Shown one piece after another: positions 43,816 through 51,875 of a DNA stretch of 64,000 bases (position 1 is the stretch's first letter; the number at the start of each line of letters is the position of its first letter). The notes under the pieces were generated by a model. The model saw nothing but the letters and a program-made list of their open reading frames with translations. It was not told the DNA's origin and did no database searches. The DNA comes from Mustelus asterias (taxonomy: Eukaryota), in contig NC_135830.1 in NCBI RefSeq assembly GCF_964213995.1, positions 10,726,001 through 10,790,000 of the forward strand, written 5' to 3'. The translations under genes were made by a program, and so were the position numbers.

Positions 43816-44359
43816 ATGGAGAACTGGCTCGCTCAGGCCCTCATCGCTATCTCACTCCTCAGTAAGGTTTTTTTCCCTTCCCAGTAAAACTACATGCTCC
43901 TGCTGACTGCTGCAACCCAGATGTTATTGTTGCTAAAACAACAGTGATGGTGGAGTTTATAATTGTATCGCTGAACATGAGGCTGACTCTGATTGTCATT
44001 ATTGTTGTTATTTCTGTTAGAATGGAACCATCAAGCCAAAGTGGAACAACTGAGTCCTGAAATATCGGTTAAAGAGGAAAGTAATGTGACACTAACCTGT
44101 ACGTTGGTAACTAGTCATTCTAATCCTTATGTATACTGTTATAGTCAGATTGCGTGGAAAGCGCCAGTGTACCTGTTTCAGTTTATTGGAGAGCAAAGGA
44201 ACACCGACCTCAATGATCGGGGTTCCTCTAAATTTGAATAAAAAACGAACAATACTAGCGAGCTAACGTTCATTAACACACTGATTTCCGACAGCGCCGT
44301 GTATTTCTGTGCCACGGAGCCTCTGCTGCAGAGATATATCGAATGCGGTAAAAAAAATC
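43816..44359 (+). pseudogene. TCR alpha/delta-like V pseudogene 1 (leader 43816-43861; V exon 44021-44320; degenerate 23-RSS 44321-44359)
   Basis: MENWLAQALIAISLL+A|GTAAG; ttag|AA WNHQAKVEQLSPEISVKEESNVTLTCTLVTSHSNPYVYCYSQ..KAPVYL..KFE*KTNNTSELTFINTLISDSAVYFCATE. Conserved W changed to C; in-frame TAA at 44239; RSS CTCTGCT-23-AAAAAAATC. ATTGG (CCAAT) boxes lie upstream near 43685 and 43718. Confidence 0.85.
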
Positions 44360-45545
44360 CCACACTGGCAGTTCCAGTTAGTGCCCAACACACGCGCGGC
44401 AAATTCAGTTTCCACAGAGAATGACGGAGATTCTTAACATTGCAGCAAGAAAAACACTCAGAAATAGCAACTGGTGTGGTCCAGTTGCACAGCTGTATTA
44501 ATTGATGATTGTAACATATGGCTGCAGAACAATGAAATCATACAATCCTCCAGTGCAGAAGGAGGCCATTCAGCTCATCGAGTCTACGCCGACCACAATC
44601 CAAACCAGGCCCTTTCCCGTAACCCCACATATTTACCTCGATAATCCCCCTTACACTTGGGTTAATTCAGCATGGCCAATCAACCTAATTGATAAGATTG
44701 ACCAATCGATCTGAGATTTGTTAAGTGGTTTTCCACGCCTTTCTCTGCCTACTTGTTCCTGACTGATTCTTTACTGATTTATGACAACTATGCCCATTTC
44801 CATTTCCCAGCCTTGAACGTAAATATTTAATGCTTTTTCTGTTACCTTGTAGTTTCATTCAAAGTTCTCCAATATGGCTGCTCGGCTATTCGGTCCAGCT
44901 TTCCATCCACATCACTGATGAAGATTTCGCTTTGTATTGAATCATATACTAACCCTGACACTCCTGGTGCGAGCCCGCTGGTCCGCAGTATGGAATGAAC
45001 ATTCGGCTCCGCTCTTGCAGAGAGACAAAGTTATAGAATTTTCAAAGTGACATTGTTATTGAGTTCAGTTCTTTGCAGATAAATTCTACCTGTGACCACA
45101 CTGCCTATGTTAGGCCCCGCCCACAGCTTTCCTGTGCTATTCTAACTCTGATCAGTCTCACCTGTGCTGTTTTATGAGAGATTTTATTGTAGATATTGAT
45201 GTTTGTGGCTTTTTTCTGTTTGGCACTGTCTGGGTCAGCTATACTTCCCCTCTGGAAGAGGATTTCACATACTGCAAAGTTACAAATTGAGGGAACATCA
45301 TATGGAAATATCTCAGACTATTCATTATTCTATCACTTCTTATCAAGTAGATGCTCCAACAAAAAAAAAATCATCCTCCCCCGCACCACACCTGCTATCC
45401 CAAACATGATTAATAACAAACTGCTCCTCATGTTGCTGTAATGATGGATATTGTCATTCTCCATGTCAGAACAGCCATCAAGACTCAGGGGATCAGTCGG
45501 TTTCTGAAATGACAGTTGAAGAGGAAAGAGGAAAGCTCATTGTTC

Positions 45546-48500: not shown

Positions 48501-50338
48501 AGAGAGGTTCAATATGCTCAAATATACTGAGCACGGCTTTGTCAAATGCAGATCGTGCCTTACGAGCCTCGTGGAGTTTTTCGAAAATGTGACTAAACAC
48601 ATTGATGAAGGGAAAGCAGTAGATGTGGTTTATATGGATTCTAGTAAGGCGTTCAATAAGGTCCCCCATGCAAGGCTTCTAGAAAAAGTGAGAGGCATGG
48701 GATCCAAGGTGCTGCTGCCCTGGATCCAGAACTGGCTTGCCCAAAGGAGGCAGAGAGTGTGTATAGATGGGTCTTTTTCTAAATGGAGGTCGGTCACCAG
48801 TGGTGTGCCCCAGGGCTCTGTTCTGGGACCCTTGCTGTTTGTCATTTTCAGAAATGACCTGGATGAGGAAGTGGAGGGAGGGGTTGGTAAGTTTGCCAAC
48901 GACACGAAGGTTGGTGGGGTTGTGGATAGTCTGGAGGGATGTCAGAAGTTACAGAGGGACATAGGTAGGATGCAAGACTGGGTGGAGAAGTGGCAGATGG
49001 ACTTCAACCCAGATAAATGCGTAGTGGTCCATTTTGGCAGGTCAAATGGGCTGAAGGAGTACAATATGTGGTGAGACCACATTTGGAATATTGTGTGCAG
49101 TTCTGGTCACCTCACTATAAGAAGGATGTGGAAGCGCTGGAAAGAGTGCAGAGGAGATTTACCAGGATGCTGCCTGGTTTGGAGGATAGGTCTTATGAGG
49201 AAAAGTTGAGCGAGCTAGGGCTGTTCTCTCTGTAGCGGCGGAGGCTGAGGGGAGACTTAATAGAGGTTTATAAAATGATAAAGGGGACAGATAGAGTGAA
49301 ATTTCAAAGACTATTTCCTTGGGTGGATGGAGCTATTACAAGGGGGCATAACTATAGGTTTCATGGTGGGAGAGATAGGAAGGATATCAGACGTGGGTTC
49401 TTTACGCAGAGAGTGGTTGGGGTGTGGAATGGACTGCCTGCAGTGATAGTGGAGTCAGACACTTTAGGAACATTTAAGCGGTTATTGGATAGGCACATGG
49501 AGCATACCAGGATGATAGGGAGTGGGATAGCTTGATCTTGGTTTCAGATAAAGCTCGGCACAACATCGTGGGCCGAAGGGCCTGTTCTGTGCTATACTGT
49601 TCTATGTCTATGTCTAATATAAAGGGAAAGACTCTTCGTACTGTAGAGGAACATAAGGACCTTGGGGTCTTGGTCCATTGGACTCTAAAATCGGCCCCGC
49701 AGGTGGAGGAGGTGGTTAAGAAGGCGTATGGTGTGCAGGCCTTTATCAATCGAGGGATTGAATTTCGGTGTCCGGGGATAATGATGCAGCTATATAAGAC
49801 CCTCGTCTGACCCCACTTGGAGTAAAGTGCTCAGTTCTGGACGCCTCATTACAGGAAGGATGTGGAAAAGATTGAAAGAGTGCAGAGGAGATTTACAAGG
49901 ATGTTGCCTGGATTGAGTGGCATGCCTTATGAGGATAGGCTGAGGGAGCTCGGTCTTTTCTCCTTGGAGAGACGTAGGATGAGAGGAGACCTAATAGAGG
50001 TATATAAGATGTTGAGAGGCACCGATCGGGTGGACTCTCAGAGGCTTTTTCCCAGGGTGGAAATGGCTGCTACGAGAGGGCACAGGTTTAAGGTGCTGGG
50101 GGGTAGGTACAGGCGAAATGTTAGGGGGAAGTTTTTCACACAGAGGGCGGTGGGCGAGTGGAATCGGCTGCCGTCAGTGGTGGTGGAGGCAAACTCAATA
50201 GGGTCTTTTAAGAGACTCCTGGATTAGTACATGGGACTTAATAGGATGGAGGGTTATAGGTAGGCCTAGAAGGTAGGGATATGTTCGGCACAACTTGTGG
50301 GGCCGAAGGGCCTGTTTGTGCTGTAGTTTTTCTATGTT
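45546..50338 (+). mobile_element. Near full-length CR1 LINE (5'UTR, ORF1 zinc finger + esterase, ORF2 EN-RT), decayed
   Basis: ORF1 CSQC..CEGC, IGDS..VVCLPGAG, WHLN; ORF2 [19 protein letters not shown] tca(t/c)tgttc at 45537-45545 and 50339-50347. Confidence 0.93.
49068..49615 (+). mobile_element. Second CR1 3' fragment nested in the larger CR1
   Basis: Has its own [14 protein letters not shown] to tail (ctatgtctatgtct); TSD aatat at 49063-49067 and 49616-49620. Confidence 0.85.
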
Positions 50339-51875
50339 TCACTGTTCAGTTGTTCGGTAATTATTCCACTTCAAGCAACACTTCTTACTTATTCTGGACC
50401 GTCAGATTCTAGCGGCTCCATGAAGTATCTATTGCTGAGATATAGAAACAGCGAGGACACACAGAGATCCCCAGGGGACCGTTTATCACCGGAATTCAAT
50501 GATACATTCCGCACTGTCCCGCTGAAAGTGTCTAAAACAGAGCTGGCAGACTCCGGCATGTATTACTACGCACGGAGAGCCACAGAGACACAGAGCAGGG
50601 CTGAATCTGTAAAGAGACTCTCAGAGCCTCACTCAAAGTAGCAGAGCGTTCGGCAAACATTGTGATCAGAGTCAGTCTGAAATGGAACCTGAAATCATGG
50701 TGATTTCTCAAACTTCTAATTCTAGAATATGCTTTTATTAATAATAAATATTTAACCAGAATAACGAAATGGCGACAGTTAAAAGAATTTACATTGGTAT
50801 ATATATAAAGTTTGATGTTCCAAAGTGTTTCCCCGTCACGGTTGAAAACACAATAGTCAATTTGGACTTAGCATATCATTTCATCCAGTAATATTACAGT
50901 GTTCTGTCTGTTTCAGTGATTGTGATTGATGAACAGATATCGAACAGGACATTTCTCCTGCTCTTCGCGGAAACAATGGCCATGCGATGCATCACGTCCA
51001 CCTGAGAAGGAAGACGGTGTCCTCGATTTAACAGGTCACCGAGAGGCTGGCAGCTCTGACGGTGCAGCATTTCCTGAGCACTGCACTGTCTCCTCGGTAA
51101 GATCCCGGAGTGTGGTTCCTGACTGACTGTCGGTGTCCTGTGGAACGGAAAGAATCTCTGAACCGACTGGAGACGGAATCCTGGAAATTCCAGGAGGTGG
51201 TGATCACGCATTTACCCAATCCTGGAAAACATAGTGAAATAAAAGCAATACAATTAAAAATAAACTTCACTGGGCCCCGTAGAAACAGGAGGACAACGAA
51301 GTTAGCTTCTCGAATCAAATTTCACTCGAAAAGAGAAACTCTTACTTTTAATGCGGCTTTTACAGATTCCAGATTTCCTAAAACAGTTTCTAACTGACGG
51401 AAGCTCATTCCCAGTGTAATCGCTGCAGTTATGTTAGAAACTGTATTAACACAGAGAGCAGTCGGAATGTTCAATTATCAGTCAGAAAGGACTGTCACTC
51501 TGACCCTGGAGTAAAGGAATTGGGGAGTCCAGGAATTTCCGGGCTATTTCGATCTTGTCACAAACAGTAACCAAATGGACACCTCTTTCTCTTTCTCTCT
51601 CTCTGTTGTTTTTTCTCTCTCTTTATGCTACATTGAGGTACCACGTTGATTAGTAACATTGTGCTAAACGTCTTATCCATACTGCCCAGCGACAGTGGAA
51701 TACATTGATTAATAAAATTCAATCTGAAAGCCTCCCGCGCCACCCTCCACATCTTCCAGAGGTTTCCATTAGATGGTCAATGATTTTGCCTGAAAAAATA
51801 CCGCAGCAGTTTCCATTACCTCCTGCAATATCACCAATGAGGAAACTCACCAGCTCTTACCACCTGTCAGTAAGC

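What the first reader, a model, noticed from the sequence alone, without database searches (positions are those of the whole stretch)
43816..50619. TCR alpha/delta-like V segments 40-47 kb from an IgM cluster, in inversion-compatible geometry
Seen: two related plus-strand V pseudogenes with 23-spacer RSS remnants and no TCR D, J or C recognised in the window. Their RSSs point the same way as the V-facing 12-RSS of the IgH D (2862-2889), whose own VH has a dead heptamer. Known: sharks make IgHV-TCRdelta chimeric rearrangements, Ig and TCR segments are linked in cartilaginous fish, and same-orientation 12/23 RSSs join by inversion. Inference: this is either the edge of the TCR alpha/delta locus or an orphon block. 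The layout would formally allow the reciprocal chimera (TCR V on IgH D-J-C), which I do not know to be described. Both V copies here are dead, so any living example must be in paralogous blocks.
Basis: partly seen in the sequence, partly recalled or inferred. Interest (0 to 1): 0.72.

Follow-up and report, generated by a model that had tools for sequence, protein, structure and literature searches.

The report
Dead shark T-cell receptor V pair
Two broken T-cell-receptor variable gene pieces lie 41-48 kb from a shark antibody (IgM) gene, an intermixed layout already published for sharks and rays; they are likely passive duplicates, and no T-cell-receptor/antibody hybrid join was found in the inherited DNA.

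Summary
Observation largely confirmed, with corrections. V1 (43816-44359) and V2 (50343-50619) are pseudogenes of two different TCR alpha/delta V families. Intact members of both sit just upstream of a TCR J-C-alpha array (contig C546), and a second J-C-alpha unit lies 7.6 Mb away on the window's own contig. V1 has a stop, Trp41>Cys and a destroyed heptamer; its family spacer is 24 nt. V2 lost its 5' end to a LINE. The single IgH 'D' is a germline D1-D2 fusion. TCR V exons between IgM clusters, dead or intact and in both orientations, are published (Flajnik 2025, text and Table S1), and this scan noted the layout elsewhere in this genome. The geometry says little: 301 of 400 V-to-IgM pairings on this contig are joinable. 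A living version exists: an intact V 36 kb from an open IgM cluster on C143. But 18 of 18 germline V-D(J) joins found use the cluster's own VH, and V1's stop predates the duplications that carry the IgM link. No RNA run was available, so a somatic reciprocal chimera is untested. Side find: two diverged TCR-alpha J-C units.

The parts
43816..43861 (+). V1 leader exon (ATG, 15 codons + 1 nt, GT donor follows)
   Evidence: homologous to leaders of intact paralogs
44021..44319 (+). V1 exon, TCR alpha/delta V pseudogene: TAA at 44239, Trp41>Cys, 6-nt deletion
   Evidence: groups with C546 J-proximal V genes at 100/99
44320..44359 (+). V1 RSS remnant: heptamer partly deleted, 24-nt spacer, degenerate nonamer
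   Evidence: alignment to intact paralog; family RSS
45442..45528 (+). 5' relic of a third, V1-like V exon; old part of the duplicated unit
45530..50342 (.). LINE-derived sequence in place of about 900 nt holding V2's promoter, leader, intron and first codons
   Evidence: RVT_1 E=4.6e-24 at 48430-49050; gap against the C546 unit
50343..50580 (+). V2, 3' part of a second TCR alpha/delta V family; frameshifts, Cys23>Gly, Cys104>Tyr
50581..50619 (+). V2 23-RSS remnant CACAGAG-23-AAAGAGACT
3287..3583 (-). IgM VH exon, open frame (leader near 3730-3775)
3242..3280 (-). VH 23-RSS with heptamer CCCAGCG (first three bases no longer CAC)
2811..2889 (-). Germline-fused D1-D2 (2839-2861) with D1-type 5' 12-RSS (2862-2889) and D2-type 3' 12-RSS (2811-2838)
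2440..2524 (-). JH (WGQG) with a weakened 23-RSS at 2486-2524

Best explanation
V1 and V2 are broken copies of two ordinary TCR alpha/delta V families, likely carried next to this IgM cluster as passengers of segmental duplication in the shark antigen-receptor complex, and they likely do nothing here. Shown: the V1-relic-V2 unit is about 80% identical to a unit with intact genes in the V array upstream of a TCR J-C-alpha locus; the families have hundreds of copies, intact and dead, in both orientations among IgM clusters; V1's stop codon is older than the copies that share this IgM neighbour. Inferred: intact family members rearrange to TCR D/J segments by deletion or inversion over long distances, while IgM clusters rearrange within their own 2 kb, where a VH about 400 bp away outcompetes any TCR V tens of kb away.
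For: Window 43777-45528 and 50343-50699 align at 79-81% with C546:53001-57644, where open V1- and V2-family genes with leaders and RSSs lie about 60-80 kb upstream of D-like and J segments and a C1-set exon with a TCR-alpha-type TM exon. First-look candidates: 206 for V1 (40 scored), 127 for V2 (40 scored). 380 V ends with near-consensus 23/24-RSS genome-wide, 100 listed, 40 of them on C71, 24 plus and 16 minus. The TAA is in 15 of 15 examined V1 copies at 91% identity or more, while only 4 of the 10 closest V1 copies have this IgM D region beside them. Neighbouring V families and distances differ among the four IgM regions mapped. 65 of 65 JH loci examined have a VH directly upstream (52 of 53 exact matches examined; 13 J-bearing of 20 further stretches). 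18 of 18 germline V-D(J) joins, 14 distinct junctions, use VH. PMC12227049 states that TCR alpha/delta V exons lie between IgH clusters; its Table S1 lists such V, including pseudogenes, on both strands near IgM. PMC2435157: IgH rearrangement stayed within the minilocus in 97 partial rearrangements with one possible exception.
Against: An intact V2-family gene (leader, splice sites, open exon, CACAGAG-23-ACAAAAACT) lies 36 kb from an IgM cluster with open VH, C-mu1-4 and TM on C143, in inversion geometry. The window's cluster keeps open C-mu1-4 and TM exons (dN/dS 0.45 against two other clusters) though its VH heptamer is dead, so it could in principle accept an outside V. PMC2435157 found IgH clusters extensively rearranged in thymocytes, where TCR V genes are open; its assays used VH-side primers and probes in the passages I saw and would likely miss TCR V joins. 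0 of 14 junctions only bounds the share at about 19% (my arithmetic), and germline joins need not mirror somatic ones.
Confidence: 0.88

Rival explanations
1. Intact TCR V segments interleaved with IgM clusters are joined by RAG to IgH D segments as rare by-products in thymocytes (by inversion or deletion); the products are mostly silent or discarded. The window's dead pair would be a relic of such a neighbourhood. This can hold together with the best explanation.
For: 12/23-compatible signals and a living geometry on C143. IgH is open to RAG in shark thymocytes (PMC2435157 passages). Inter-locus TCR trans-rearrangements occur rarely in wild-type mouse thymocytes (PMC3632137 passages).
Against: No such junction among 18 germline joins. 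No Ig transcripts detected in thymus. Cannot involve the window's own V1 (heptamer destroyed).
Confidence: 0.35
2. The reciprocal chimera is a used part of the repertoire: TCR V domains are expressed on IgM heavy chains, and IgM clusters with a dead VH signal but open D-J-C-mu serve as acceptors.
For: Window cluster: dead VH heptamer, open C-mu and TM, D fusion with a near-consensus 5' RSS, copied four times. The opposite chimera (VH on TCR-delta) is established (stated in PMC12227049 and PMC5931798).
Against: The V segments beside this cluster were dead before its recent duplications; no V in the 264 kb around it was found with both an open full exon and an RSS; all germline joins use VH; the search of longer proteins with an intact V2 returned 5 hits, none a TCR V on C-mu (weak, by the tool's own note).
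Confidence: 0.05
3. The linkage is an assembly artefact.
For: One copy on the same contig is 99.89% identical over 100 kb, inverted, and could be a false duplication.
Against: No gap in 264 kb. Copies on C143 (98-99%) and C88 (57.6 kb spacing instead of 41 kb) carry the same link with their own differences. The same kind of layout is tabulated in three other species.
Confidence: 0.03
4. The segments are non-rearranging IgSF exons, VH-like (TAILV) segments or leaderless NAR-TCR supporting V segments.
For: None found; tandem spacing of V1 and V2 recalls a two-V cassette.
Against: Paralogs have consensus RSSs and their own leaders; no D or J motif between V1 and V2; they do not group with VH.
Confidence: 0.03

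Closest known systems
Scattered TCR alpha/delta V exons of the elasmobranch antigen-receptor complex (Flajnik et al. 2025, PMC12227049; I read parts 1-2 of 8 of the text and all of Table S1; the supplementary PDF was not opened)
   Same: TCR alpha/delta V exons, intact and pseudo, on both strands between IgM clusters, tens of kb from them; e.g. great white 'TCRadV pseudo' on plus about 69 kb beyond a minus-strand 'IgM pseudo?', catshark TCRa/dV on minus about 72 kb before a plus-strand IgM.
   Different: Here traced at sequence level to a duplicated V1-relic-V2 unit with hundreds of family copies; this genome shows two diverged TCR-alpha J-C units, while Table S1 lists one TCR-alpha C entry per species.
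IgH V to TCR-delta trans-rearrangements and TAILV of nurse shark (Criscitiello 2010, Deiss 2019, Ott 2021: not held, seen only as cited in PMC12227049, PMC5931798, PMC6795676, PMC5192425)
   Same: Same chromosomal intermixing and 12/23 compatibility.
   Different: The proposal is the opposite direction (TCR V onto IgH D-J-C); no evidence for it here.
Partially germline-joined shark IgM clusters (PMC5192425 passages; germ-cell RAG activity, PMC2193156 abstract)
   Same: The window cluster is V-DD-J; VD-D-J, VDD-J, V-D-DJ and VDDJ forms occur in the same genome.
   Different: Its VH signal is additionally dead, so it likely cannot finish rearranging with its own VH.
Human inv(14) VH-to-TCR-alpha fusion in T-cell tumours (Baer 1985, Denny 1986; titles only, in a reference list)
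   Same: Inversional RAG joining between Ig and TCR loci on one chromosome.
   Different: Aberrant, VH-to-TCR direction, far longer distance.

Membership tests
TCR alpha/delta V segment (TRAV/TRDV) | V-set exon closest to TCR alpha/delta V | tested here: met
   PDB best hits mostly TCR alpha/delta; Pfam V-set
TCR alpha/delta V segment (TRAV/TRDV) | Family members in the V array of a TCR J-C-alpha locus | tested here: met
   C546: four open V1/V2-family genes upstream of the J array and C exon; tree support 100/99 for the V1 clade, 93/99 for the V2 clade
TCR alpha/delta V segment (TRAV/TRDV) | Split leader and 23-type RSS | tested here: met
   V1 leader present; RSS remnants homologous to intact paralog RSSs; V1 family spacer 24 nt
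TCR alpha/delta V segment (TRAV/TRDV) | Use in TCR alpha or delta transcripts | not testable with these tools
   no RNA holder listed
Functional V gene | Open frame, Cys23/Trp41/Cys104, intact heptamer | tested here: not met
   V1 stop, W>C, heptamer lost; V2 truncated, frameshifted, both Cys lost
NAR-TCR supporting V | No leader of its own, downstream of a NAR V-D-J (recalled definition) | tested here: not met
   V1 has a leader; V2 paralogs have leaders about 590 nt upstream; no D/J between V1 and V2
VH or TAILV | Groups with IgH V | tested here: not met
   separate from three VH rows; no named TAILV sequence was available
Non-rearranging IgSF V exon | No RSS; V and J in one exon | tested here: not met
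   paralogs end in consensus RSSs
Elasmobranch antigen-receptor complex | IgM clusters, TCR V field and TCR-alpha J-C on one chromosome piece | tested here: met
   all on C71
Elasmobranch antigen-receptor complex | Linkage to PSMB5, UrIg2, IgW and IgNAR | not tested
   no search made
Reciprocal TCR V-IgH chimera | TCR V joined to IgH D or J in DNA | tested here: not met
   germline only: 0 of 18 joins; patterns need the V end TATTWYTGY and near-consensus D/J motifs
Reciprocal TCR V-IgH chimera | TCR V-C-mu transcripts | not testable with these tools
   no RNA holder listed

The most novel reading that the evidence does not exclude
Because intact TCR V segments sit within 15-60 kb of open IgM clusters and IgH D segments are cut by RAG in shark thymocytes, sharks also make and express the reverse chimera: a TCR alpha/delta V domain on an IgM heavy chain, with VH-signal-dead clusters like this one as acceptors.
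Probability: 0.05. Interest if true: 0.75.

Novelty: already known. Interest (0 to 1): 0.16.

Why it matters
As it stands it is one more dead corner of a published layout. If TCR V-C-mu chains were expressed, V pools would be shared in both directions between antibodies and T-cell receptors in the oldest jawed vertebrates, which bears on how Ig and TCR separated. This work gives a concrete test locus (C143:781-825 kb) and a first negative control (germline joins all use VH). The two diverged TCR-alpha J-C units noticed on the way may deserve a separate look.

Tried and rejected
No RNA holder listed for an intact paralog. The four listed runs cover introns and spacers evenly and look like DNA; the loose ends shown at a canonical D1-D2-JH stretch included no TCR V end, but 25 were not shown and contigs drop rare variants, so this is no evidence. 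Search of longer proteins with V1 found nothing. One search used wrong coordinates (a repeat) and only showed the extent of the duplication. The RSS-like string at 29613-29651 has no V before it and resembles a SINE tail: rejected. TCR C-delta was not found by HMM and ORF scans between the D/J-delta-like segments and the J-alpha arrays (one 200-N gap on C546), so alpha versus delta use is open. Three key nurse shark papers (PMC7909615, PMC7039070, PMC3222143) were not held, so I cannot say that they do not mention the reciprocal chimera; searches listed no paper on it. The tree had 19 rows, no named shark TRAV/TRDV/TAILV/IgL references, and V2 filled only 46% of columns. Folding and complex prediction were not used: they would not change the reading.
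Full report
Place. The window is G000:C71:10726001-10790000 in a 3.68-Gb assembly. No N in the 264 kb around it.

What is in the window. V1 has a leader (43816-43861) and an exon from 44021 with a TAA at 44239, Trp41>Cys and a 6-nt deletion; its heptamer is partly deleted. Its family RSS is CACACTG-24-ACAAAAACC, so the spacer is 24, not 23. 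V2 survives only as a 3' part (50343-50580) with frameshifts, both cysteines lost and CACAGAG-23-AAAGAGACT; about 900 nt with its leader are replaced by 4.8 kb of LINE-derived DNA. A 5' relic of a third V lies at 45442-45528. On the minus strand lie an open VH with heptamer CCCAGCG, one 'D' and a JH. The D has the D1-type 5' nonamer and the D2-type 3' RSS, so it is a germline D1-D2 fusion. C-mu1-4 are 11-16 kb left of the window, open, with a TM exon further on. The D's 5' 12-RSS and the V signals point the same way, 41 and 48 kb apart.

What the V segments are. Best solved-structure matches are mostly TCR alpha/delta chains. A pattern for 12-RSS J segments found 44 matches: 39 on C546, 4 on C71, 1 on C7. 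On C546, open V1- and V2-family genes with leaders and RSSs stand in tandem upstream of D-like segments, a long J array, a C1-set exon and a TCR-alpha-type TM exon. The window unit aligns to that unit at 79-81%, and in a 19-row tree V1 and V2 fall with those genes and apart from VH and TCR-beta V. V1 and V2 are separate families, about 31% identical. On C71 itself, 26 J segments, a C exon and a TM exon lie at 18.37-18.43 Mb on the plus strand, 7.6 Mb from V1; the window's V segments face them in deletional orientation. That distance rests on the assembly.

Copy number and history. First-look candidates: 206 for V1, 127 for V2, 121 for the D region, 110 for C-mu4; 40 scored each. 9 of 30 V1 copies examined are stop-free, 5 of them with a leader found; 17 of 37 distinct V2 copies are stop-free over the aligned part with a good RSS. 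The TAA is in 15 of 15 V1 copies at 91% identity or more. The IgM-plus-V block recurs at C71:4.92-5.02 Mb (99.89% over 100 kb, inverted), on C143 (98-99% in two 10-kb samples) and on C88 with a longer spacing, which argues against misassembly. But 6 of the 10 closest V1 copies have no near-identical D region beside them, and the V neighbours differ among four mapped IgM regions. So V1 was dead before the linked copies arose, and the link is not a conserved module.

Geometry. Of 380 V ends with near-consensus RSS, 100 were listed, 40 on C71: 24 plus, 16 minus. Pairing those 40 with the 10 exact JH matches on C71 gives 208 inversional, 93 deletional and 99 unproductive pairs. 'Inversion-compatible' is therefore the commonest state.

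A living case exists: on C143 an intact V2-family gene at 818.2 kb (minus) is 36 kb from a plus-strand IgM cluster with open VH, C-mu1-4 and TM. The window's cluster has a dead VH signal but open constant exons (dS 0.25, dN/dS 0.45 to two other clusters). In nurse shark, IgH clusters are extensively though partially rearranged in thymocytes, with no Ig transcripts detected (PMC2435157, abstract and passages).

Against it. Sharks freeze RAG products in the germline (PMC2193156, abstract). Three genome-wide patterns for any V end joined to JH, D2 or D1 gave 1, 9 and 6 matches; all 16 carry a VH, as do 2 more seen: 14 distinct junctions, none with a TCR V. 65 of 65 JH loci examined have a VH upstream (52 of 53 exact matches, one at a contig end not examined; 13 of 20 further stretches held a J, 7 did not). 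PMC2435157 reports rearrangement within the minilocus in 97 cases with one possible exception. The sample is small (upper bound about 19%) and germline. No RNA run was listed, so expression is untested. That loss of the first three heptamer bases blocks RAG cleavage is recalled, not from a call.

Known. [quoted passage not shown] Earlier notes of this scan reached the same view on other DNA of this genome; I found the paper before seeing them. I found no paper on a TCR V-IgH chimera in sharks, but three key papers were not held and the supplementary PDF of PMC12227049 was not opened.

Verdict. Real, ordinary, already known: dead TCR alpha/delta V duplicates in the shark antigen-receptor complex. 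Interest 0.16. An expressed reverse chimera remains possible at about 5%.

Noticed in passing
G000:C546:137.5-242 kb and G000:C71:18.366-18.432 Mb (L152-L191): Two TCR-alpha-type J-C-TM units. The C exons are 84% identical in DNA and 74% in protein, both open, and are the only two matches in the genome. The C71 unit has 26 J found and no V in the 100 kb upstream by my scan. Table S1 of PMC12227049 lists one TCR-alpha C entry per species; one paper search listed nothing on a second shark TCR-alpha locus. Paralogs likely; divergent alleles not excluded.
   Followed up: partly
V1 family, e.g. C546:43674, 53538, 63394; L040-L050: A conserved 24-nt RSS spacer in open, J-proximal V genes; whether they rearrange is untested.
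   Followed up: partly
window 2440-3583 and C-mu to the left: A divergent IgM cluster (C-mu dS about 0.25 from two others) that is V-DD-J, has a dead VH heptamer, keeps all examined exons open and exists in four near-identical copies.
   Followed up: partly
L081 (C166:443 kb): A fully germline-joined, in-frame VDJ IgH gene with leader.
   Followed up: no
C71:10626473, 12179625, 12534594; C143:770536: A broken VH fragment recurs about 10-14 kb upstream of IgM clusters (the cluster near 10.61 Mb).
   Followed up: no
C71:4915001-5015000: An inverted copy of the window's neighbourhood, 99.89% identical over the whole 100 kb fetched; recent duplication or assembly duplicate.
   Followed up: partly
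window 29000-39000: tRNA-like repeated units; ARAGORN calls tRNA-Gln at 30339-30410 and tRNA-Val at 38385-38458.
   Followed up: no
C71:12223251-12229714: A NAR-like V followed 6 kb later by an open TCR V with a consensus RSS, probably a NAR-TCR cassette, about 57 kb from an IgM VH.
   Followed up: no
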